Shown here piece by piece: positions 1-60,668 of a stretch of DNA of 64,000 nt. How positions within the stretch are numbered: the stretch's first letter is position 1; every line of letters begins with the position of its first letter. The notes below the pieces were generated by a model, which saw only the letters and a program-made list of their open reading frames with translations, made no database searches and was not told the DNA's origin. The position numbers were made by a program, and so were the translations under genes. Source of the stretch: Octopus vulgaris (Eukaryota); contig OX597819.1 in assembly GCA_951406725.2 (NCBI GenBank), forward strand, positions 101,494,001-101,558,000, in the 5' to 3' direction.

Positions 1-977
1 GGTGCTGGTTTAACGCCAGTGTCTTGGCCGTTACCTGAGCCGCAGGGCCAGTTTTCATGGCTTCCTCTAAATCCTTAACTAGAGTTGATCTCCTCCTGGC
101 CTCTCTAGCACTAATCTTATGCTATATCTAATAGACTCGAATTTTATGGCTCGTTTGATAGCATACCACCATTAATTATTAATGATGGCACCAGATATCG
201 CCCTCTGAATCAAAGTCCTAATCCGGTCTCTGTACTCCTTGATCGCCAAAAGGGACGTATTAAGATTCCAATAACCAGAGCCTCTCTTATATACCTTATG
301 TATGTCAAGCTTACAGGTGACCATTTTATGATCAATATAGCTGACCGGGTAAAACTGTGGACACTTAGGTATTTCTCTATCTGCTTTTCTAATTAGTACT
401 CTATCTATGTATGTCCTGGAAGTTCCGTCGCTATTTGACCATGTCCACAATTGAGAGTTCGGAAATTCCAACCTATAAGGATCTGCTAGCTCAAAGCGAC
501 TTAGCAGTTCCAGGAAGCCAGGGTTACCTTTCCTATCTGTACACGAGCCAACATAATCTACATCCGCCTTGTAAATTGTGTTGTAGTCTCCTAGCACAAC
601 TAATGAATGTGAAGTACTAAGAAACTTCTCTAGCTCTCGAAAATACTCACTTTGCCCAGATGATGATGAGGGTGCATAAATTGCAATCAGTTACTGAACG
701 TCAAATCCATGACGACTGAAAAAATTAACTTTTTCTCAAAAACCCGGTTTCTTTTTAATAGGACTAACACGCCACTCCTGCCGGTAGGACTGCCTGGAGA
801 GAAAAAACTCTCGTAGCCGTTCAACAGCGGGAGCAGATCTCTTGGCTCCTCTAACCGAGTTTCTGTAGCAACAATGACATCCAAATTCCGCGACCTGATA
901 TCATTAAGGAAGCGACCCTGCTTCCAGCTTGATCTCAGGCCACGCATATTCAAGCAACCAACATGAATGTTAGACAT
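1..977 (-). pseudogene. LINE ORF2 N-terminal apurinic-like endonuclease, frameshifted
   Basis: MSNIHVGCLNMRGL...DVIVATET, LGDYN, WTW...TYIDRVL, DHKMV and GSGYWNLNTSLL are the canonical L1/Tx1 APE motifs (NxRG, QET, GDFN, RIDR, SDH, WKLN). Confidence 0.9.
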
Positions 978-980
978 TAC

Positions 981-2263
981 TTACCTCAGTATCAGTGGTT
1001 CAGCGTTTTTTCATCCTCGTTTTCTTTTTCTCGGGCTCGTGGCGTATTTGGTCGTAGGCCCTCGTAAATATATGGAGAAAATCCATTCTTAGAGGGCCTA
1101 CGCCGTGGAAGAATTCGGACTTAATCCGCCCGTAATCCTCCCGGCCTATCTTGTAGATAAGGAAGTCTTTTGATGTACTTTTTTCAACTCGTTTGACAGT
1201 TGGGATAACTGCCAAACGGTTGACTAGTCTGTTGTTTGAGGCCTTTATGGCCATGTACGTATTGTCTTTCTCTTGTTCATTTTTCTTTTTTATATTCAAT
1301 TTGGGAGGGGCGGTCTGTGTTTTTTTCCTTTTCCTTAAAAGTAGTCGACCAGTCTTTCTCTTCACTTTCTTCTGTCGCTGGTGATGTAACATCTTTAGGT
1401 GTTGGTGCTGGTGTTTCTTTTAGTGTTGGTACTGGTGTTGTCTCATCTGGTGTTTCTTCTTTTCTTTCCTTCTCTTTTGGTTGGCACTCGGCCCTTGTGT
1501 GTCCCTTCAACTCGCAGCTGAAGCATCTCGGTTTTCTGGCTTCCACGTATACTATCAGTCTCTCACCTCCGCCAACATTTATGGCTTTTGGAATTTCTTC
1601 TAATGTTGCCACCTCCGCTTGAATTACCATCGTCAAGCATTGCCCTTTCCAATGCTCTTCCTCTTCCACTGAGGCCTGGAGAATATTTATTTTTTCCTCC
1701 AGGCCTAATGTTATTGCTGCCACTAAACAAGAGGCATCCACTTCAGGGGGTAAGTTATTTATTTTTGATGTTCTTCCTCCCATGAATATTGGAAGAAGAA
1801 CCACCTCCTCTGTTTTGAGTGTCTCCGAAGAGTACCTTTTGGCTGCTTCTTCTGTTTTGAACCTTACTTCCAATGTACCGAACCGTTTTCCACGGTTGAT
1901 GTAGGTGATTTCGGGTCAAATTGGTTTCAGGCATTTTTCTACATTTTTTCCTCTATTCTTTGTATCATTTTTTAAACTATGCTGTACGTCTTGTATATGA
2001 TCCTTTTCCTGTTTACTGCGTCTGTCGTTCCTTCTGTTGTAGCCACTGTAATTTCTGTTCCTTCTTTTTTCAACATGTGCATATATTTTTCTAAATTACT
2101 CTTTTCAGTATTTAGCTTTTTTTCCCCTTTTCCTAGCTACCTCTGCGAATTTCTTCAGTGAGACTACTGGTGTTATTTCATTTTGTTTTTTCGGTGTTAC
2201 TGCTGGTGAACTACTTTCTTCACCTGACACGGGTGAGAAAGAAAATGGTGTATGCATTTCCAT
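981..2263 (-). pseudogene. LINE ORF1 (gag-like, zinc knuckle), disrupted by frameshifts
   Basis: ATG at 2263 (MEMHTPFSFSP...). ORF 1277..1873 contains CFSCELKGHTRAEC (CX2CX4HX4C). The reading continues in the frame of ORF 1000..1392. Confidence 0.8.
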
Positions 2264-7304: not shown

Positions 7305-7460
7305 CGGGTCGAAAGTGCATGGCTTAGTAATTAGGATGTTGGGCTTACGATCGTATGATCCAAGGTTCGATTACTGGACAAGATTATGCGTTTTTTCCTT
7401 GATCAAAGCATTTATTTTGAAGACGTTCATGCCTGCTCAGCTAAAACTGAGTACCAAGTC
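7305..7460 (+). mobile_element. Degraded tRNA-SINE related to family B
   Basis: tggcttagtaattagg...ggttcgatt...ccttgatcaaagca...ctcagctaaaactgagtacc. Confidence 0.55.
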
Positions 7461-7763: not shown

Positions 7764-7985
7764 TGGATGCGCGTGGCTTAGTGGTTAGGGTGTCAGCATC
7801 AAGATTGTGGTTCCGATTCCTGGGCCGGGTGACGCGTTGTGTTCTTGAGCAAAACACTTCATTTCACGTTGCTCCAGTCCACTCAGCTGGCAAAAATGAG
7901 TAACGATGCGATCACATACGCCATTGAAACCGGGAAACCGGGCTCATGAGCCTGGCTAAGCTTTAAAAGGGCGCATTTATTTTAT
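7763..7985 (+). mobile_element. tRNA-derived SINE family B (CORE/V-like central domain), internally deleted
   Basis: A box TGGCTTAGTGG, GTTCCGATTCC, gtgttcttgagcaaaacactt...ccagtccactcagctg...aaatgagta; matches 31937-32190. Confidence 0.85.
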
Positions 7986-10209: not shown

Positions 10210-10352
10210 AAGATTACCCACTTAAAGCTGAGTGAACTGCACCAACGTGAAATGAAATCTTTGCTCAAACACCCAACATACAATTGGTCAGGCGATGGAA
10301 ACATTAATCTCAAGATCGTGAGCGCATCACCCCAAACACTAAGCCACGCGCA
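10210..10352 (-). mobile_element. Degraded family B SINE head
   Basis: agctgagtgaactgcaccaacgtgaaatgaaa...cactaagccacgcgc. Confidence 0.65.
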
Positions 10353-13196: not shown

Positions 13197-13260
13197 AACG
13201 ATAGATAGATAGATAGATAGATAGATATACATACATGCGTATATACATAAATATATATTG

Positions 13261-14290
13261 CTACAAAAGGAAGACAAAACAAAAAAATTGCAGTTTTATT
13301 TGTATTTCTAAATTTCGGAGCTATAACCTCCTTTTCAGGATATTTGGGTTGGAAAAGTAAGGAATGGAAGAGTCATTGCTCAGTGGGGAAGAAAAGAGTA
13401 TGGAAGATGAAGGCGGAAGGTGACATGCGCAAACTGGTGTTGCTATAGTAACCAGTCTGTCTTATGTAGCTTCTTCCTGCCGTTAATGGCTGCTTTCAGT
13501 TCGTTGATTAAGAGGGCCTCCTTGACACTGAGATTGACTCTCTCACGTTGAGAGGCCAAATGGATATTTTAAAATCATGGGTCTGGCACTTCTTTAGGTG
13601 GTATGTTTATTGAAGTGTCTGTGCACTTATGTTCTTTTACTGGAAGGTTAAACCTCCTGGTGGTACTCCCAAAGTAGGATTCCCCACATTTACTGCAGAC
13701 TATTTCATATACCACATAGACCCTCGAGCACGTATTGACGTCATTTACGCGGCAATTGCATAGTGTGCACGACACACCGCTACCTGTGGTATTATTCCCC
13801 CACAGATATTTCCTCAGCGACGAGCGATGTGCACTAAGTGTGCGTTGACAGTTCCTCCCTGCGGATCGCGTGTTGTATAACTGCAGTTATTTTGTCATCG
13901 AAGTTGAGCAGTTTGAGGAAGCACATATCAGTCTTGGGACTATGAGCCCTTTGATATGGTTTACCCACTCTGATGTTTTGTAGATGCAGTCGTTTGGCTA
14001 CAGGTGGCGGATAGATGTTGTGCGTTAAGTTGTTTCGCTGCCTCTGTCGCTTATGCGTGTGATTTCATTTCATACGTGTGTGAATTTGGCTTTGGTGGGC
14101 AGGGCTGATTGTAAAGTTCCTACTGGATGATTTTCTGTAAAAATCAGTATGATGGAACCCTCCTCTATGAATTTGATTTTGGAAATCTAGCAGAAAGTGT
14201 GTTCCGGATTCGTCCTGGTGCTCTATTTCAAATTTGAGATACAGCCCTACTTCCAAGACAGAACATAACTCCGGTTATACAACAGGCGAT
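13261..14290 (-). mobile_element. Penelope-like element 3' part (RT thumb, GIY-YIG endonuclease, hammerhead relic)
   Basis: LKFEIEHQ...FLLDF...TDFYRK...PAH; VVYEIVCSKCGESYFGSTTRRFNLPVKEH; downstream CTGAAAA-GGAG-gttatag-CTCC-GAAA. Confidence 0.85.
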
Positions 14291-15899: not shown

Positions 15900-17480
15900 A
15901 CATTACAAAAGAATTGTTAAAGCTTCAGAGATAATTCCCTTCAGTTCAAAATCTCAAAATCCTGAGTTCAAATCCTACTGTCGTCAACATTGACTTTCAT
16001 TTCATCAGGAACAATAAAATAAAGCTTAACTTGGATAGTTTGGAGCAATTTAATCAACGAACTCTTGGCCCGAATTTTTGGTTTTGTGCGTATGTTAAGA
16101 GTAATTATTACTTTTGCAGGAGCTGGGTTTTAGTAGAGCGATCAAATGGTCAAGAAAAGGGCATTGCAGTATTTACTTATTCCATTTTATATCTTGAGAA
16201 GTCAAATCACATCGAGGTTAATTTTGACTTTCATCCTTCTGGAATCCACAAAATGAAATTACAGTCAATTTGGAGAAAAGAGTACTTGATGATATTGGCC
16301 CTGCTGGTTAATCTGCATTATTCCATAGGGAGTGTAGGGCCAGTTTCCCAGTCTCTCTGACATATATATATATATTCCCTCTACTGGAAGAGACAAAGGT
16401 CCGTTACTGGGTTACTCATTTTTGCCAGCTGAGTGGACTGGAGCAACGTGAAATGAAGTGTTTTACTCAAGAACGCAATGAATCGCCCAGTCTAGGAATC
16501 GAGAGCACAGTCTTACGATCATGGGTCCAACACCCTGACTACTAAGACATGCACCTTCACTGGATTAATGTAATCAGGTTTTACCTCGCAAATTTCTTGC
16601 CTTATGCCAGTATAAGTGTTTGGCAAAATATTTTGGGTTGTCTGACAAAATACCTTATGATATCTGTTCCATCTCCTTCTCTTTTGAGTTCAAGTCCAAA
16701 CGAGGTGTAATTTCACAAGGTTTCGACCCAAGTCGTAAAATAAAGAACCAGTCAATTACAGTTTTCGATCTAATCGAGTAACTACCCCGCCTAAAACTTT
16801 AAAATATTCCTTTATTATTGATGATGAGAAATTACGGGGCGTGCTGAGAGAATCATAAGCTCACCGGAGAAAATACTTAGCAACGGTATTACTTCCGGTT
16901 TTGTGAAATGCTTAGCGGTATTTCGTCTGCGTTACGTTGTGAGTTCAAATTCCGCTGAGGTCGACTTTGCCTTTCATCCTTTCGGGGTCGATAAATTAAG
17001 TACCAGTTACGCACTGGGGTCGATGTAATCGACTTAATACCTATGTCTGTCCTTGTTTGTCCCCTCTGTGTTTAGCCCCTTGTGGGTAATAAAGAAATAG
17101 GTATTACTTCCGGTTTTGCGTTCTGAGTTCAAAATTCTACTCAGGTGGACTTTGCTTTCCATCTTTTCGGAGTCGTGCCAGTTAAGCACTGGGATTGACG
17201 TTGTCGATTAGACCCCTAACTCAAAATTTCAGGCCTTATTATAAAAAGGATTATTGATGATCAGAAATTTGGTGACATGCTGGTTCGTCGAACAAAATGC
17301 TAAAATGCTTAGAGCTATTTATTCCGGCTCTTATCGTTTTAAGCTCAAATCCTACCGAGGCCAACTTTGCTTTCCCTCACTTTCGGTGGTCGATAAAATA
17401 AAGTACCAGTTAAAAACTGGAGTCGATAGAATGGACCTGTCTCCTCCCCACAAAATTTCTAGCCTTCTGCCAAAATTAGA
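15900..17480 (+). mobile_element. Cluster of at least 5 family D SINE copies of different ages plus one inverted family B copy (about 16330-16560, minus)
   Basis: Repeated gagttcaaat...gactttcatcc/gcctttcatcc...taaaataaagtaccag motifs near 15960, 16200, 16690, 16940, 17125 and 17345. Confidence 0.8.
16904..17099 (+). mobile_element. Young 5'-truncated family D SINE with a 19-bp TSD
   Basis: GGTATTACTTCCGGTTTTG at 16885-16903 and 17100-17118; Nin-like gcctttcatcctttcggggtcgataaattaagtaccag. Confidence 0.92.
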
Positions 17481-31936: not shown

Positions 31937-32190
31937 GTGGAGGCGCGTGGCTTAGTGGTTAGTGTGTCAGCATCAGGATCGTAAGATTCTGGTTTCGATT
32001 GCTGGACCGGGGGACGCGTTGTGTTCTTGATCAAAACACTTAATTTCACGTTGCTCCAGTCCACGCAGCTGGCAAAAATGAGTAACGCTGCAATGGCCAA
32101 GCGACCTGTCCAGATGGGGAACATATACGCCATAGAAACCGGGAAAGCGGGCCCATAAGCCTGGCTAGGCTTTAAAAGAGTGCATTTATT
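31937..32190 (+). mobile_element. Family B SINE, full length
   Basis: tRNA head, CORE/V-like centre, tail ggctaggctttaaaagagtgcatttattt. Confidence 0.88.
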
Positions 32191-32200
32191 TTATATATAT

Positions 32201-32240
<40 letters not shown>

Positions 32241-32242
<2 letters not shown>

Positions 32243-32449
32243 TAATCCAAACATGAAAACAAAAAGAGAAAACACAACAACGCGAGGACGTGGAACAAGT
32301 ATAGCATTATTGGACGCTCAGGAAAGAAGGAAAGAAGGAGGGTTTAACGTTTCGAGCGGAGCTCTTCGTCAGAAACATAGGAAAAGGAAAGATCCAAAGA
32401 AGGGAAGACGGAGGAAAAATTTGCCAACGGTACACACGCGGTCACATTT

Positions 32450-32451
<2 letters not shown>
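32241..32451 (-). mobile_element. ~210-bp hammerhead-bearing non-coding element (PLE-terminal/retrozyme-like), in (TA)n
   Basis: Same boundaries as the copy at 53131-53337; contains a hammerhead core. Confidence 0.8.
32342..32376 (-). ncRNA. Minimal type I hammerhead ribozyme, intact core
   Basis: GTTT-CTGACGA-A-GAGC-tcc-GCTC-GAA-ACGT-T-AAAC: stem I GTTT/AAAC, stem II GAGC/GCTC, palindromic ACGT stem III, NUH = GUU. Confidence 0.75.
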
Positions 32452-32535
<84 letters not shown>

Positions 32536-32539
<4 letters not shown>

Positions 32540-47115: not shown

Positions 47116-47203
47116 ATGTAATGTACTGGTGGATGATGAATCGAAACAATCATAGTAGTTCTCAATAAATATTTAGGGAATTCCATTTTCTGTCTCTTAC
47201 AGA

Positions 47204-47405
47204 AAAATGTAACCGCATGTGATTGTTAGCCATTGTTTTTCTAGTTCGACTTGGACGTTCATGCTTTTTCTGTTTCCGAAGGTGAGCTATGCTCGAAACG
47301 TAAAACACTTTTCTTTCTTTAATCGTCTTATCAATACATTGCTTGTGCCACATCCACATGTTCATTAGTAAAAGTAATTGTATTTCTTTTGTTGTTTGGA
47401 ATTTG
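47204..47405 (+). mobile_element. Older copy of the ~210-bp hammerhead element
   Basis: Starts aaaatgtaaccgc like the other copies; GTTT-CCGAAGG-T-GAGC-tat-GCTC-GAA-ACGT-A-AAAC at 47272-47306. Confidence 0.7.
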
Positions 47406-53092: not shown

Positions 53093-53130
<38 letters not shown>

Positions 53131-53131
<1 letters not shown>

Positions 53132-53337
53132 TTAATCCAAACAAGAAAGCACAAATAAAACACAACGCGAGGACGTGGAACAAATATAGTATTATAGGAC
53201 GCTCAGGAATGAAGGAAAGAAGGAGGGTTTAACGTTTCGAGCGGAGCTCTTCGTCGGAAACATAAGAGAAGGAAAAATCCAGAGATGGGAAGACAGAGGA
53301 AAAAAATCGTCAACGGTACACACGAGGTCACACTTTG
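53131..53337 (-). mobile_element. Second ~210-bp hammerhead element in (TA)n; core mutated (CCGACGA)
   Basis: Colinear with 32241-32451 end to end; hammerhead at 53227-53261. Confidence 0.8.
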
Positions 53338-55835
53338 AAATATATATATATTTATATATATATATATATATATACCTCTTCATACATACGCAAACAAGAA
53401 CCTACACACTCACAAACACACACACATACAAATACACAAACATACGTTAATATGTATATTTATTTTTCTTCCCCTTCTCTCACTCTGTCTTCATAATTTA
53501 TCGTAATTTATTTATATAATAGTGAGCATGAATGCTCATCACATTTTGTGTATAAGTATATTCTTTAATTATGGATTAACTATGCTACATTAGAATTCCT
53601 GCGAAAACCTTGCAATTTTAAAGCGTTCCCATTAAATGTCGGTATTCTTCCCCTATGTTAGACTAAGATATGTGAGAGGACACGAGACTTTGAAGAACTT
53701 TAAACTTTGCCTGCTGGAATTGAGTGAAACATATGAGACATAGATAAGGGGAGAAAACGTGCGTGCAGTTTTTGTTCGTGTGTGCGGTGAGGTAGGGCAG
53801 TGTTAGGTAAAATATCTATGGCTATTGGCTTTCAAAGCTGTTTCACTACACCATACTAAAACTTAAATAAAGGCATACAGCATGCATCACACCCTTGCGC
53901 ACATGTGTATGTGTATTCATGGCTTTAGTGGTCATTTTATGAGATGTTACATAATTTTAAGCGTTCGTATGTTCATGAAACATATTCAAAAATATGTTCC
54001 TGAGAGCAAGTGAAGAATACATATTCTTATTTATTAACATTAAATCTATTTTCTATCAATTTATTCTGGCGAGGTAGACAAGTGATCATGCTTGAATTTT
54101 CCCAGTTTAAGCTGTTGTTTCTGTAAGCAAGGTGAGAACGTTCCTTCCATAATTTTCAAAACGCCTAATGTTGAATTACGAGATTTAATCTCTCTTTGAT
54201 TACGACATTTCCCGCCGCCACTAGTGTCAATAATTTGCAGTTTCCTTTACCGCGACAGGTGCTAACCAAGTGCTAGCCGTCAATGCCCCTTCTCACCGCC
54301 ATGACCTCTACGACCACTGCAAGAATCGTTTAGAAAATGTCAGTAACTGTTATATTCGTCTATCACCCCCACGACTTCTTAAACGGAAGAAGCAGTGTCT
54401 CTGCTCGCATCACAGTCCACACAGCTGGATCTATATAGACTCAAATGTCGTTACTCAGTTCATCTCTGAGGATGGACCTGTATAACCCATATATATCCTT
54501 GATTATGTTTTCGCAACGGGAACCTACACCTACTTTTTGGACATGAACTCGCCGAGAAGCATCTGACTGAGCATACAAAATCTTCAGTAGATAGTCGACA
54601 CCCGTAGCTAACAGTTGCATGTCCTTTTTTTCCAGATTGTGAAAGCTTAACATAATGTTTAATCTAAATACAGTGAAATTTTAAGACTTCATTTTATTTT
54701 ATGGACATATATGGATGGGATAAGAAAGAGAAGAGACAAAGGAATAAATTATTATCTTCGTTACCTTATAGTTATTTCTGCTATACGATGTTGTGGGCTC
54801 ATAGTTTAGTGCCTGAATAACACCTTATAGCTTCATCGAGGCCTCGAATATGAAATGAAATTTATTGTTGTAAAAGAATTACATTACATGTCTTGTCCAA
54901 TGAACAGAAAAGAACAATATACTCCTAAATGAAAAGAACAATATGTTGATAATTTAATTTGATCCACTTTCGAAAGAGAATATTCTGATACTGCAACATG
55001 CTCTTGTTCTCGGCATATTGTATTGGTGTAACTATTGATAAGAATTTAAACTGAAGTTTCCACGTAAACAGCTAGGTTGACTTGGCCCGCAAGATGTGCT
55101 CCTAGATTCTGATAACTTTCTGGTCTAAAGATGCTCACAACATCATTCTTTTCTACTCTACCGTTGCTCGAATTCACCTTCAATACCGTTGCTACTGTGG
55201 TCTCCCCACACGAAGCAAAGAATTATAAAAGTGGAATCACTCCAGATGTCAATAACTAGAAAGAAAGACGGCATGGCAGCCATTGACTACTGGGGTTGAC
55301 TAAAAAAAATCAATCTCGACTCACTCCAATGCCGCCGTGAGCGCTACATCATTTGTGTGATATGGAGATCAATATTGCAGAAATGATGCTGGCATCAGTT
55401 TTATAATCCACTCAAGAATTTGTCTCCGTGCTATCTGCCGACTACAAAAATCGAACTCAGGACACATAACGACATTACGACACAACTACTTTAACACAAC
55501 CGGTCCAGCTCTCTTTAATGTCATATCAAAATACATAAAAAAATACATCCCATAAAACACAAAAGTTCTCTGGACAAATTTCACCAAAAATTCTCGGACC
55601 AGCCTTCTATACTCGGATATGTCTCTAACAATAATACATCCTTGATAGAATGGGCCATGGTGTCCCATATATGATGGAAGCGTGAATCACGATCTGAAAG
55701 ACTTCACCAGGTGGTGCTATTCAGTTAGACGTGGCCTGAGCCAATACTGACCGAAACCTATCTAAGTTATATGTAAAGACATATATACATACATATATGT
55801 GTGCGTGTGCGTGTGTGTGTGTGTGTTTGTGCGTT

Positions 55836-56699: not shown

Positions 56700-57830
56700 T
56701 GGTATCTTGGGAATACCGTAGAATTGGCTGGTTTTACTTTTGAAATTGGTCATATAGTCATATTCTTTGTCGGTGAGCTCTTCTTTGTATAGGTTTAACA
56801 TGGATTTTTGTTCTCTCATTATTTTTTGCTGACTGTACTTTTGGGTCTTTTCATAATATGTTGTATCTTCCAACATAGATAGTACTAAAGTTATATAAAA
56901 TACCGTGTCCATTATGTCAACTGCACTCCCTTTATTGGCCTCTTTGGTTGTTATTGTTTTGTCATTTTTTAATTTGTTCAGCTCAGTCCATTTTTTTTTT
57001 TGCTGAAGTTTGGTTTGTGTTTTTGTTTGTGCATATGTTGATATGGGTAATTCGAAATGTGTTCACACAAATGATCAAGTGTTTTGAGCGGGGTGCAGTT
57101 ACTCGTATTTCTGACCAACGATTCGTCCTCGTTGTATTTGTCGTATAGCTCCTCAGCAAGACGTAATTTTCTACAGAATTCTGCGATGTCCTCTTTCATT
57201 TCATTGTAGTTGGGGTGTTGTGGGGTGGGTGTAAACTTGAGTCCTTTGGAGAGTATATTGATTTGGTTTGCTGTTAGTTCATTGTGAGTTAGATTGATCA
57301 TTTTTATCACTGTTGGTTACTCCTGTCTCTTTGGTGCTATCTTGTGTCTCTGTGTTTGCGTATTGAGTCTAAAAAATGATTGCGGTGGTTGGGAGGGTAA
57401 CTATTATGTAGTTGTTCCTTGTTGTTGCGGGGTGCCCTGTTGTGATTTATGGTGTGTGTTCTGTGAACAGTATTGAAAAGTGTGTCCCAATAACCCATAT
57501 TCGGGTGTGGTGTTTTAGGGGGCCGTCGTTCGTAATTATTGCGTGTGGTGCGGGTTTGTTGTGCATGGTTGTTTAGTAGGTTGTTGGAACGAAAATTTCG
57601 TTCGTAACTCTTTTTCGGGGGTAGGAGGTTACAGCGTCTATCCTGTGGGTAGTGATTTATCCTTTCTCTGTTTGAAGTTAGGGTACTCCCGAAATTGTAT
57701 TGTTGGTGGCTTACAAAGTTAGGGTTAGGTCCTGTATTATTTTTTGGTAGAAGTGATGGTTCCGATTTTTAGTCAGGTATGTATCAGTGTTTGAGTGTTG
57801 TTTTGATTTTCTTATTTTCTGGAAAGGATT
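56700..57830 (-). mobile_element. Penelope-like element, N-terminal region and start of RT, truncated at a (CA)n run
   Basis: INLT...QINILSKGLKFTPTP...EFCRKLRL; KEANKGSAVDIM...YYEK...FYGIPKI (PLE ADKG and FYGLPKIHK motifs). Confidence 0.85.
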
Positions 57831-57959: not shown

Positions 57960-58560
57960 ACCTAACAAACAATTGACAGTGAAGACCTTCAGATTCCAAG
58001 ATACAACCGAAAATTTAGATTATATTCTATTTCTGTTGAGGGCATCACGCATGTAATTGGAAGCTGCCAAACAATGTCATCAAGTGAAATGATGCTGTCA
58101 CAGAAACAATATACAATACCATTCGGAAAACAGAATGATCAAAAATGTATAGAGACCATATTTACAACATCAACACTAGGAATATTGGTGAAACCATTCC
58201 TGTCAAAACACCCGACAGGTTTAAACATAACAGGCCCGATGTTATTTTGGACAGACAAGAAAAACTATGTACCATCACAGAGGTCAGAAGCCCTTCTGAT
58301 ATAAATATCTCTTTGAGAAGGAAAGAGAAAGAGGATGACAATGGGAAACTGCTCCCACTTTATATATCTAGATTATAAAGTTACATTTATAGCAATTGGT
58401 GTTTTTTCTGTTTAGAGTAAGTTGCCTATGTGATAATTTGGGTAAGCTACGCTTCTCAGGGAGAGAAAACAACGAACTAATACGCGCATTACAAATGCAT
58501 ATTTTTACTGTAAGTGGAACAGTAAAAATATGCGAGACATTCTCAAGTTTGAAATTTGTC
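57960..58560 (+). mobile_element. RLE-type (R4/Dong-like) non-LTR retrotransposon 3' fragment
   Basis: ITHVIGSCQTM; HNRPDVILDRQEKLCTITEVRSPSDINISLRRKEKEDD (PD..D/E nuclease); ...GTVKICETF. Confidence 0.75.
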
Positions 58561-58900
58561 TTTCTTTTTGTTGTCAACCTTCTAGCGGTAGAGTTTGTAG
58601 CTTCGTTACAAACCACCTCCTTCCTCAGCGGAAGAATTCAAGAATTAAAGACAGAAGAGATCATACTTACTTACACACACTCACACAAACACACACACAC
58701 ACAAACATACAAACAAACACACATATGTATGTATGCGCATCTATTGTATCTAACTATAGATAAATAGACAAATAGATACACACATACATGCATGCATACA
58801 TATATACATTCATATAAGCACGCATAGATACACATACATTTTATATATATATATGTATATATACACACATACATATACATATATATATATATATACATTT

Positions 58901-59394: not shown

Positions 59395-59584
59395 AGAGCG
59401 TGTTTAGAGCCATGAGCCCTGTACATACATGTATGTGTGCCTGTGGGAATGTGTGTACATCTCTGACTGTATATGTAACTGAATATCTAGATATTTGGTC
59501 TGCGTTGTATTTATTTCATTTCCAAAAATGTAAATGCATACTTATATACATTTGTATATCAATCAATCAACTTATCTATCTATC

Positions 59585-59658
<74 letters not shown>

Positions 59659-59679
59659 AATCTATCTATCTATCTATCT

Positions 59680-60668
59680 GCTCTCAAGCAACTCTGCCGT
59701 CCTGGGTCGACCTTGAGTGACTTCAACACAACCAAAGCATTCTATAGGGGTTTAGTGGAGGGGAGGTACGACGACGAGCTCGGGGCGAACCTGGACGTCG
59801 ACGAGGAGTACCTGACCCGCCTGTTCAGGATGACTTTCGGGACAGGGCCCATGGACAACTTCCAGAGATCCCTGGCCTGGCAGTGCTACCGAGAAGCGCT
59901 ACCCGTTCGGGATAAGCTCTACAGACACGGCTCGAGAAACACGGGGCCGACCTGCCCGAGATGCGGTCAGAGCGACGAAACCGTTCTGCACGCACTCGTG
60001 CAGTGTCCAACAATTTCCGACCTGTGGGCTTGTGTCGAACAACTGCTGCCACGTGTGGGACGAGTCGGTTTATCAGCTGAGTCTATCGTTAATATTGTCA
60101 CGCCTCCCTCCTTCAAACGGGAAGGAAGAGCTATTTTCATCATCCTTGTGGCTATGGCGAAAGAATGTATCTGGTGGACGCGTCTGAAATGATTGGAGAC
60201 AAACACTTTCCTCTCTGGTCAATCTCTCATCAACTTCTTCAAGTACCACTTGAAAAGGAAAGTGAGAGTAGAGAGGCAAGTTTTGTCTAGCGAATGCTTT
60301 AAAAAGATGGGTGAATGTAGCAAGAATGGCACGTATGAATGACGAAGCCACCTTGAGCATGATCTAATGAACCCAGAAATTGAAAACAGAGAGTTGCTTA
60401 TTTGCAAAAAAAAAAAAAAAAAGAAATATAACATGTGACTCCATTGACCGAGGTTACCGTGGTCTTTTCCGTAGGCTTTTCTTTCGACGGGTAAACCTCA
60501 CCTGTCCTCCCCTTTACACTTCATATTGACATTTCTGTGATAACGATCCCTATTGATCAAATTTTTTTTTTCCTCTCCCCCTTTTTTTTTTTTAAACCTT
60601 CAAAAGAAAAGCTCTACCTTGTAATTTGTTCTATCTGTGTGCAGCCCTGTGTGGCTAATAAAGAAACA
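59680..60668 (+). mobile_element. 5'-truncated Tx1/L1-clade LINE (ORF2 C-terminal zf-RVT and 3'UTR) inserted in a (TATC)n array
   Basis: W..YREALPVRDKL...CPRCGQSDETVLHALVQC...CIWWTR; frameshifted tail to about 60367; ends AATAAAGAAACA; (TATC)n on both sides. Confidence 0.9.

What the first reader, a model, noticed from the sequence alone, without database searches (positions are those of the whole stretch)
32241..32451. Discrete ~210-bp hammerhead-ribozyme element (retrozyme/PLE-terminal type) with an intact core, repeated in (TA)n tracts
Seen: the minus strand 32342-32376 reads GTTT CTGACGA A GAGC tcc GCTC GAA ACGT T AAAC, which is a full CUGANGA/GAAA core with stem I GTTT/AAAC, stem II GAGC/GCTC and a palindromic ACGT in place of a closed stem III. 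A second copy (53131-53337) has the same two boundaries, a third (from 47204) shares the 5' boundary, and the first two sit in (TA)n. Established: minimal type I hammerheads with a palindromic stem III that cleave as dimers mark Penelope-like terminal repeats and retrozymes. Inference: this is a non-autonomous self-cleaving retroelement family, possibly mobilised by the PLEs whose RT and GIY-YIG remnants are in this window.
Basis: partly seen in the sequence, partly recalled or inferred. Interest (0 to 1): 0.8.

Follow-up and report, generated by a model that had tools for sequence, protein, structure and literature searches.

The report
Octopus Penelope-type hammerhead terminal repeats
This is a real, highly repeated ~210-base element with a minimal hammerhead-ribozyme motif in what is likely octopus DNA, and it is most likely the stranded end piece of a Penelope-type jumping gene, a kind of element already described in many other animals.

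Summary
The motif is real: 32342-32376(-) fits the published minimal hammerhead of Penelope-like elements (PLEs); 1 of 1000 simulated windows gave one. It lies mid-way in a 212-bp unit (32240-32451) inside (TA)n. Copy 2 (90% identical) has the same ends but a U4C core. Copy 3 (47204+, 72%) is a distant subfamily outside (TA)n. Against copy 3, changes fall at 5 of 6 free but 2 of 29 constrained ribozyme positions (p=4e-4). Public runs lay 5,667-27,799 contigs on the unit; U4C is 34-49% of depth in all four. Length, ribozyme position, (TA)n target and lack of tandem joints fit solo PLE pseudo-LTRs, likely copied from uncleaved RNA. They do not fit circular-RNA retrozymes. The parent ORF was not found, so a self-propagating non-autonomous family stays open (~25%). 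The PLE remnants in the window share no sequence with the unit. Cleavage is untested and predicted weak. Verdict: new member of a known kind, low-moderate interest.

The parts
32240..32451 (-). Copy 1 of the 212-bp hammerhead-bearing unit (likely solo pseudo-LTR of a PLE)
32342..32376 (-). Minimal type I hammerhead motif, canonical core; predicted cut 3' of 32346 (GUU), 106 nt from either end of the unit
   Evidence: consensus in the supplement of PMC4209133
32192..32238 (.). (TA)n tract at the RNA 3' end of copy 1
32452..32536 (.). (TA)n tract at the RNA 5' end of copy 1
53130..53337 (-). Copy 2, 90% identical to copy 1, same ends, in (TA)n (53099-53128 and 53340-53374)
53227..53261 (-). Hammerhead motif of copy 2 with U4C core (a variant carried by 34-49% of family depth)
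47204..47402 (+). Copy 3, distant subfamily (72% identity), not in (TA)n; own ends unknown
47272..47306 (+). Hammerhead motif of copy 3: U4C, A9G, changed N7, extra base, loop II and H17; stems unchanged
13255..13868 (-). Separate PLE remnant used for comparison: GIY-YIG-like frame, stop at about 13443, ~185-nt 3' region with its own decayed hammerhead (core starts 13338), then microsatellite; no similarity to the unit
56700..57316 (-). Separate PLE-like remnant: N-terminal region and start of RT, frameshifted, 3' end missing; 33 of 39 residues identical to an Octopus bimaculoides RT-like protein

Best explanation
The unit is a dispersed, high-copy 212-bp repeat with a minimal hammerhead motif at its centre, and it is most likely the solo pseudo-LTR (3' terminal repeat) of an octopus Penelope-like retroelement, likely inserted into (TA)n tracts by that element's RT/GIY-YIG protein. 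Shown here: the motif, the repeat, the shared ends of two copies, the (TA)n flanks, abundance in public runs, and sequence change that spares the ribozyme frame. Inferred steps: (1) the PLE protein nicks AT-rich/(TA)n DNA. (2) It starts reverse transcription at a fixed site about 100 nt 3' of the hammerhead, as shown in vitro for the Anolis Poseidon element (85-92 nt past the cut; PMC11167929); this gives the sharp 3' end. (3) Synthesis stops at the 5' end of the pseudo-LTR, at the template's start or a preferred stop, leaving the repeat without its ORF. (4) The template was uncleaved, since the cut site lies inside every full copy. The hammerhead would be a weak ribozyme that needs a dimer or protein help. 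It would process tandem parent transcripts and is probably inactive in solitary copies.
For: Architecture equals the PLE min-HHR consensus, including the U-rich 5' flank, the extra base before stem II, G10.1-C11.1 and the two-base palindromic 15.2-16.2 pair, with the same C-G-U-U ending as two Lottia motifs (PMC4209133 supplement file 2). That paper says most such motifs occur as single elements probably from truncated PLEs. Unit length 212 bp against pLTRs of 193-218 bp in Adineta, where solo pLTRs also occur (PMC3846280 passages). The 3' end lies 106 nt past the cut against 85-92 nt in PAc. The window's own GIY-YIG remnant shows the same layout: stop, ~105 nt, hammerhead, ~50 nt, microsatellite. 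(TA)n bias is reported for Naiad and Neptune PLEs. In one search, loose ends of 27 and 25 contigs (runs X1, X6) run through the unit's 3' end straight into (TA)n. Selection on the fold: copy 1 vs copy 3 differ at 5 of 6 free and 2 of 29 constrained positions, Fisher p=3.7e-4. The two common family variants inside the motif are both compatible with the fold: U4C, and a stem I G-C to G-U change at 10-16%. Depth over the 5'-most ~40 bp is 2-16% of the peak, as 5' truncation would give.
Against: No copy joined to a PLE ORF was seen. No genome is held, no laid contig spans the whole unit, and protein searches with one open frame of the unit found nothing. A shared 5' end in copy 1, copy 2, X1 record 8 and, in run X6, about 74% of the depth at that end is sharper than random truncation predicts. 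The 5' depth drop is confounded by copy 1's private changes (32420, 32422) and an A-run indel at 32419. Within the family the motif is not less variable than its flanks: 2 of 35 vs 9 of 176 positions with a minor variant of 10% or more, p=1.0 (2 rows of the table were not shown). No compensatory change occurs in the stems of the three copies. ViennaRNA does not favour the hammerhead fold: monomer probability 0.001-0.003, stem I pairing under 0.09 in the full unit, double-hammerhead -5.7 against MFE -22.5 kcal/mol, z-scores -0.8 to +0.3; the model ignores core contacts. Cleavage was not tested.
Confidence: 0.62

Rival explanations
1. A pseudo-LTR-derived, SINE-like non-autonomous family: solo copies are themselves transcribed (from an internal Pol II promoter or by read-in from the upstream (TA)n tract) and the linear, uncleaved RNA is copied in trans by a PLE protein, so the unit spreads without a sequence-matched full-length parent.
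For: The same two ends in copy 1, copy 2 and X1 record 8; TA-flank depth right at the 5' end in all four runs. Eleven positions vary at 10-60%, which points to several source copies. U4C, which lowers activity in vitro (PMC3088659), was amplified to 34-49%. Trans-mobilisation by pLTR sequences alone is reported (PMC3846280), and pLTR-derived non-autonomous monomers are proposed in 10.64898/2026.07.22.740005.
Against: In X1, X9 and X8 only 7-12% of the depth at the 5' end continues into (TA)n as copy 1 does; the rest differs and could run on into longer elements. A fixed 5' end and several subfamilies are also expected from several autonomous masters. No transcript evidence is available.
Confidence: 0.27
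2. A classical non-LTR retrozyme: tandem units are transcribed, cut to 212-nt monomers, circularised and reverse-transcribed by rolling circle.
For: Unit size and low GC fit 150-400-nt metazoan retrozymes (PMC7229834); the palindromic stem III suits dimer cleavage; some retrozyme families are mostly monomers.
Against: All three window copies are single and 15-21 kb or 6 kb apart. None of the 15 listed of 20 joints links the unit's 3' end to its 5' end, and the best-supported joints have depth under 100 against millions (short contigs can miss such joints). Ends are fixed 106 nt from the cut rather than at the cut or at random points of a circle.
Confidence: 0.07
3. A Pol III SINE with a hammerhead, like the schistosome SM-alpha/Sj-alpha elements.
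For: Short, dispersed and abundant; a B-box-like nonamer with one mismatch overlaps the hammerhead.
Against: No A box even with one mismatch, and T5-T7 and T4-T5 runs lie on the sense strand upstream of the hammerhead in both copies, which would end Pol III transcription (terminator rule from general knowledge).
Confidence: 0.02
4. The motif is a chance look-alike inside an unrelated repeat.
For: No Rfam match; fold not favoured by ViennaRNA; motif not less variable than flanks within the family.
Against: 1 of 1000 simulations gave a match; the divergent copy 3 changes the free positions and keeps the constrained ones, p=3.7e-4.
Confidence: 0.02

Closest known systems
Minimal hammerheads (min-HHR) in pseudo-LTRs of metazoan Penelope-like elements (Cervera & De la Pena 2014, PMC4209133)
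   Same: Type I topology, 4-bp stem I, extra base before stem II, G10.1-C11.1, palindromic 15.2-16.2 in place of stem III, U-rich 5' flank, mostly solo and genome-wide; molluscan examples (Lottia, Crassostrea) are in its supplement.
   Different: Stem II is 4 bp (7-8 bp in Schistosoma min-HHRs); a third to a half of the family carries U4C; no octopus entry in the searchable supplement file (file 1 not searchable); no parent ORF identified here.
Poseidon element PAc of Anolis carolinensis (Frangieh et al. 2024, PMC11167929)
   Same: Insertion 3' end about 90-105 nt past the hammerhead cut; AT-rich target; cleavage not needed for insertion in vitro, which fits copies that contain the uncut site.
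   Different: In PAc the ORF starts in stem II; here the ATG at stem I (32378) opens only 23 codons and is absent in copy 3. The 3' region here is U-rich, not AC-rich.
Non-LTR retrozymes of animals (Cervera & de la Pena 2020, PMC7229834; Li, Clavereau & Pollet 2026, 10.64898/2026.07.22.740005)
   Same: Short non-coding unit with a type I hammerhead, proposed to derive from PLE pLTRs and to be moved by PLEs; monomers occur.
   Different: Defined by tandem units and circular RNA; neither seen here. Ends are offset from the cut site.
Microsatellite-targeting PLE clades Neptune, Nematis and Naiad (Craig et al. 2021, 10.1101/2021.04.23.441226)
   Same: Insertion bias for (TA)n, with target duplications hidden by the tract; present in Octopus (Naiads).
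   Different: Naiads lack hammerheads, so a Naiad parent is unlikely; a Neptune- or Nematis-type parent is my inference and untested.

Membership tests
PLE-type minimal hammerhead (min-HHR) | CUGANGA-H, stem II with G10.1-C11.1, GAAA, palindromic 15.2-16.2, U-H, short stem I | tested here: met
   copy 1, against the consensus; copies 2 and 3 carry U4C (and A9G)
PLE-type minimal hammerhead (min-HHR) | Variation across copies spares core and stems | tested here: inconclusive
   met between subfamilies (5 of 6 vs 2 of 29, p=3.7e-4); not seen within the family (2 of 35 vs 9 of 176, p=1.0); no compensatory pairs
PLE-type minimal hammerhead (min-HHR) | Self-cleavage, as a dimer or with protein help | not testable with these tools
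   folding models do not favour the active fold; needs an in vitro assay
PLE pseudo-LTR | About 200-bp terminal repeat holding the hammerhead, with a fixed 3' end about 100 nt past the cut | tested here: met
   212 bp, 106 nt; 3' end abuts (TA)n in loose ends of 27 and 25 contigs
PLE pseudo-LTR | Same sequence found flanking an RT plus GIY-YIG ORF | not testable with these tools
   no genome; not met for the two remnants in the window; contigs too short
PLE pseudo-LTR | 5'-truncated, inverted or tailed copies | tested here: inconclusive
   5' depth 2-16% of peak but confounded by copy 1's private changes; no inverted pair in the window
Non-LTR retrozyme | Head-to-tail tandem units, each with a hammerhead | tested here: not met
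   three single copies in the window; no end-to-start joint among 15 listed of 20; weak for the genome as a whole
Non-LTR retrozyme | Abundant unit-length circular RNA | not testable with these tools
   only contigs could be laid
Pol III hammerhead SINE (SM-alpha type) | A and B boxes, no internal T-run before the ribozyme | tested here: not met
   no A box; T5-T7 runs upstream of the motif
Rfam hammerhead families | Covariance-model match | tested here: not met

The most novel reading that the evidence does not exclude
A self-propagating, SINE-like family driven by Penelope machinery, with thousands to about 10^5 copies in octopus. It inserts into (TA)n tracts, could use the upstream tract as its promoter, is copied from uncleaved linear RNA between two fixed ends, and has spread a tuned-down U4C ribozyme in up to half of its copies. 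It would be a PLE-dependent non-autonomous element that needs neither tandem arrays nor circles, and a natural series for testing whether hammerhead cleavage helps or hinders PLE transposition.
Probability: 0.27. Interest if true: 0.55.

Novelty: new member of a known kind. Interest (0 to 1): 0.27.

Why it matters
As a solo PLE terminal repeat it adds an octopus family to a described class and helps repeat annotation; little more. Two features have some use. The cut site lies inside every full copy, and a weakened-core variant (U4C) reached a third to a half of the family. Both agree with the in vitro result that hammerhead cleavage is not needed for PLE insertion, and the role of the PLE hammerhead is still open. 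If the unit proves to propagate on its own, it would be a large SINE-like parasite of Penelope elements in a genome much studied for its repeats.

Tried and rejected
Whole-genome search: no genome held. Rfam: 0 at gathering; no hammerhead among 19 weak matches. Pattern scans for relatives: 0 in viral contigs, 2 in metagenomes, 3 in prokaryote genomes; all 5 are 59-61% GC contigs with no CUGA core and no similarity beyond the pattern, so they were rejected as chance. Linking the unit to a PLE ORF through protein databases: the one fully open frame (antisense, 71 aa) gave 0 of 60 candidates and 0 hits among 1.84 billion representatives; sense frames were not searched. The GIY-YIG remnant gave 0 of 26 candidates and no GIY-YIG Pfam hit; its identity rests on a feature-search lead (GIY-YIG in 16-18% of cluster members) and recalled motifs. 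A z~4 similarity between the unit and 58250-58720 under lenient scoring vanished with stricter scoring and dinucleotide shuffles. I first took 57966-58390 for an inverted GIY-YIG copy; its frame reads instead like a restriction-like endonuclease of an R4/Dong LINE (motif recalled), so it was dropped. A profile of the three copies found no fourth copy in the window. Expression: no RNA holder listed; run X8 is only guessed to be RNA and is not used as evidence of transcription. Target-site duplications cannot be read inside (TA)n. Earlier-findings look-ups by sequence, genome and relatives were empty. Lunse et al. on dimer cleavage is not held and is known here only through PMC6765202. PMC12602865 gave nothing relevant.

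Full report
Setting. The window is 34.8% GC, microsatellite-rich animal DNA. A remnant at 56703-57020 has as its only protein hits two Octopus bimaculoides proteins (2 of 82 candidates; 33 of 39 residues identical to the best), so the source is likely an octopus. No whole genome is held, so family-level evidence comes from three window copies and from public-run contigs.

Observation. A strict descriptor (exact core, stem II of 4 bp or more, palindrome, stem I of 4 bp or more) finds 1 site in the window; 1 of 1000 locally matched Markov simulations gave one. The motif lies in a unit spanning 32240-32451. Copy 2 (53130-53337) is 187 of 207 identical, has the same ends, and is also inside (TA)n; about 1.9% of window positions lie that deep in a TA tract. 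Copy 3 (47204-~47402, + strand) is 138 of 193 identical and lies hundreds of bases from any TA tract. Only copy 1 has the canonical core: copy 2 has U4C, copy 3 U4C and A9G. A profile of the three finds no fourth copy. Rfam sees none of them.

Is it a hammerhead? The layout equals the min-HHR consensus of Cervera & De la Pena 2014 (PMC4209133; I read parts 1-2 of 4 of the text, and passages of supplement file 2; file 1 was not searchable). The best test here is copy 1 against copy 3. Of 7 differences in 35 nt, 5 fall on the 6 free positions (N7, the extra base, loop II, H17) and 2 on the 29 constrained ones (p=3.7e-4). One of those two, U4C, is a known natural variant: it lowers activity in vitro but supports viroid infectivity (PMC3088659 passage), and is said not to abolish cleavage (PMC9608096 passage; also seen in 10.64898/2026.09.16.752053 passages). 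Against: the stems show no compensatory change; within the family common variants are as frequent in the motif as outside (2 of 35 vs 9 of 176, p=1.0); and ViennaRNA gives the hammerhead fold a probability of 0.001-0.003, with stem I pairing under 0.09 in the full unit and the double hammerhead far above the MFE. This fits the low in vitro activity reported for min-HHRs and the 8 of 9 inactive dimers in 10.64898/2026.07.22.740005 (parts 1-3 of 5 read; supplements not seen). Cleavage itself is untested.

The family. 21 of 24 listed runs, from 11 studies, hold the stretch or part of it. I laid 4 of them (organism codes A, B, D, B): 14,255, 27,799, 6,847 and 5,667 contigs. Summed depth is not a copy number. 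If one assumes single-locus depth near 30 and up to 31-fold overlap inflation, the rough range is 5,000 to 170,000 copies; two copies per 64 kb would be about 31,000 per Gb. U4C makes up 34, 46, 49 and 47% of depth in the four runs, far above the 1-9% seen at most CpG sites, so it was amplified from source copies and is not decay. The other common change in the motif (10-16%) turns the closing G-C of stem I into G-U. Remaining listed core changes are at CpG level (40 rows listed, 2 not shown). Loose ends run from the unit's RNA 3' end straight into (TA)n. At the 5' end the picture is mixed. One other locus (X1 record 8) and about 74% of local depth in X6 continue into TA as copy 1 does, but only 7-12% do so in X1, X9 and X8. 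Depth over the last 40 bp is 2-16% of peak, which may reflect truncation or copy 1's private changes. No listed joint (15 of 20 shown) links end to start.

What it most likely is. Length (212 bp against 193-218 bp pLTRs in PMC3846280, passages), ribozyme position and target all match a PLE pseudo-LTR. Frangieh et al. (PMC11167929, parts 1-2 of 4) showed that a Poseidon protein nicks AT-rich DNA, starts reverse transcription 85-92 nt past the hammerhead cut, and does not need cleavage; here the 3' end is 106 nt past the cut. Because the cut site is internal, every full copy came from RNA that was not cut there. That argues against the retrozyme cycle of tandem transcript, monomer and circle (PMC7229834, passages and Discussion). 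The window holds its own model: the GIY-YIG-like remnant at 13578-13868 is followed by a stop, about 105 nt, a different decayed hammerhead at 13338 and a microsatellite. Its 3' region is unrelated to the unit, so it is not the parent. The RT remnant at 56700-57316 lacks its 3' end and shows no similarity upstream. (TA)n bias is reported for Neptune and Naiad clades, and Naiads lack hammerheads (10.1101/2021.04.23.441226 passages), so a Neptune- or Nematis-type parent is my inference. PLE 5' truncation and pLTR formation are described in PMC8969392 and PMC6765202 (passages).

What stays open. I could not see a copy attached to an ORF. The fixed 5' end of a good part of the family leaves a real chance (about 0.27) that solo copies propagate themselves in trans, SINE-fashion. 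A Pol III origin is unlikely (no A box, internal T runs).

In print? Searches for hammerhead+octopus (30 of 51 listed), hammerhead ribozyme+Penelope (35 of 36), octopus+Penelope+retrotransposon (15 of 17) and cephalopod+ribozyme (20 of 30) listed no paper on this family. PMC13282606 (parts 1-2 of 3; supplement not opened, library off-site) lists 31 recently active PLE families in O. vulgaris. PMC8967140 (passages) has no mention of ribozymes. PMC6962438 (passages) counts 235 hammerhead-1 loci in giant squid. Repbase and Dfam could not be checked, so the family may already be catalogued as a repeat. An earlier AI note from another genome (e1-7882047) reached a similar reading for similar motifs; I did not test it, and it is not independent support.

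Verdict. Observation partly confirmed; interpretation partly supported. A real PLE-type minimal hammerhead in an abundant (TA)n-inserted unit, most likely solo pseudo-LTRs (0.62). New member of a known kind; interest 0.27.

Noticed in passing
window 13255-13868 (-): GIY-YIG-like PLE remnant with a Cys-rich linker and its own decayed hammerhead (core at 13338, G8A) in a ~185-nt 3' region ending at a microsatellite; a second PLE family unrelated to the unit.
   Followed up: partly
window 58103-58390 (+): Frame resembling the restriction-like endonuclease of R4/Dong-type LINEs (motif recalled), head-to-head with the PLE-like remnant at 56700-57770.
   Followed up: partly
window 47180-47203 (+): Copy 3 is directly preceded by a polypyrimidine tract and CAG (47200-47202), like a splice acceptor; PLE pLTRs can hold introns. 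May be chance.
   Followed up: no
window 32346: The predicted cut site lies exactly at the middle of the unit, 106 nt from each end; unexplained, possibly coincidence.
   Followed up: no
window 32349-32357 (-): A B-box-like nonamer (one mismatch) overlaps stem II and the GAAA of the hammerhead; no A box.
   Followed up: yes
window 172-1915 (-) and 59494-60192 (+): Remnants of APE-type LINEs: Exo_endo_phos domain with an upstream gag-like frame, and a zf-RVT domain.
   Followed up: no
window 31940-32190, 7766-7981, 16411-16556, 7317-7418, 10226-10351, 2797-2902: A dispersed SINE-like family (70-81% identity; tRNA-like head recalled, not tested); one copy ends at the (TA)n tract that holds copy 1.
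   Followed up: no
L002:2064-2090 and L005:1831-1857: The same short inverted repeat resembling the pattern in two GC-rich bacterial contigs; no hammerhead core, treated as chance.
   Followed up: partly
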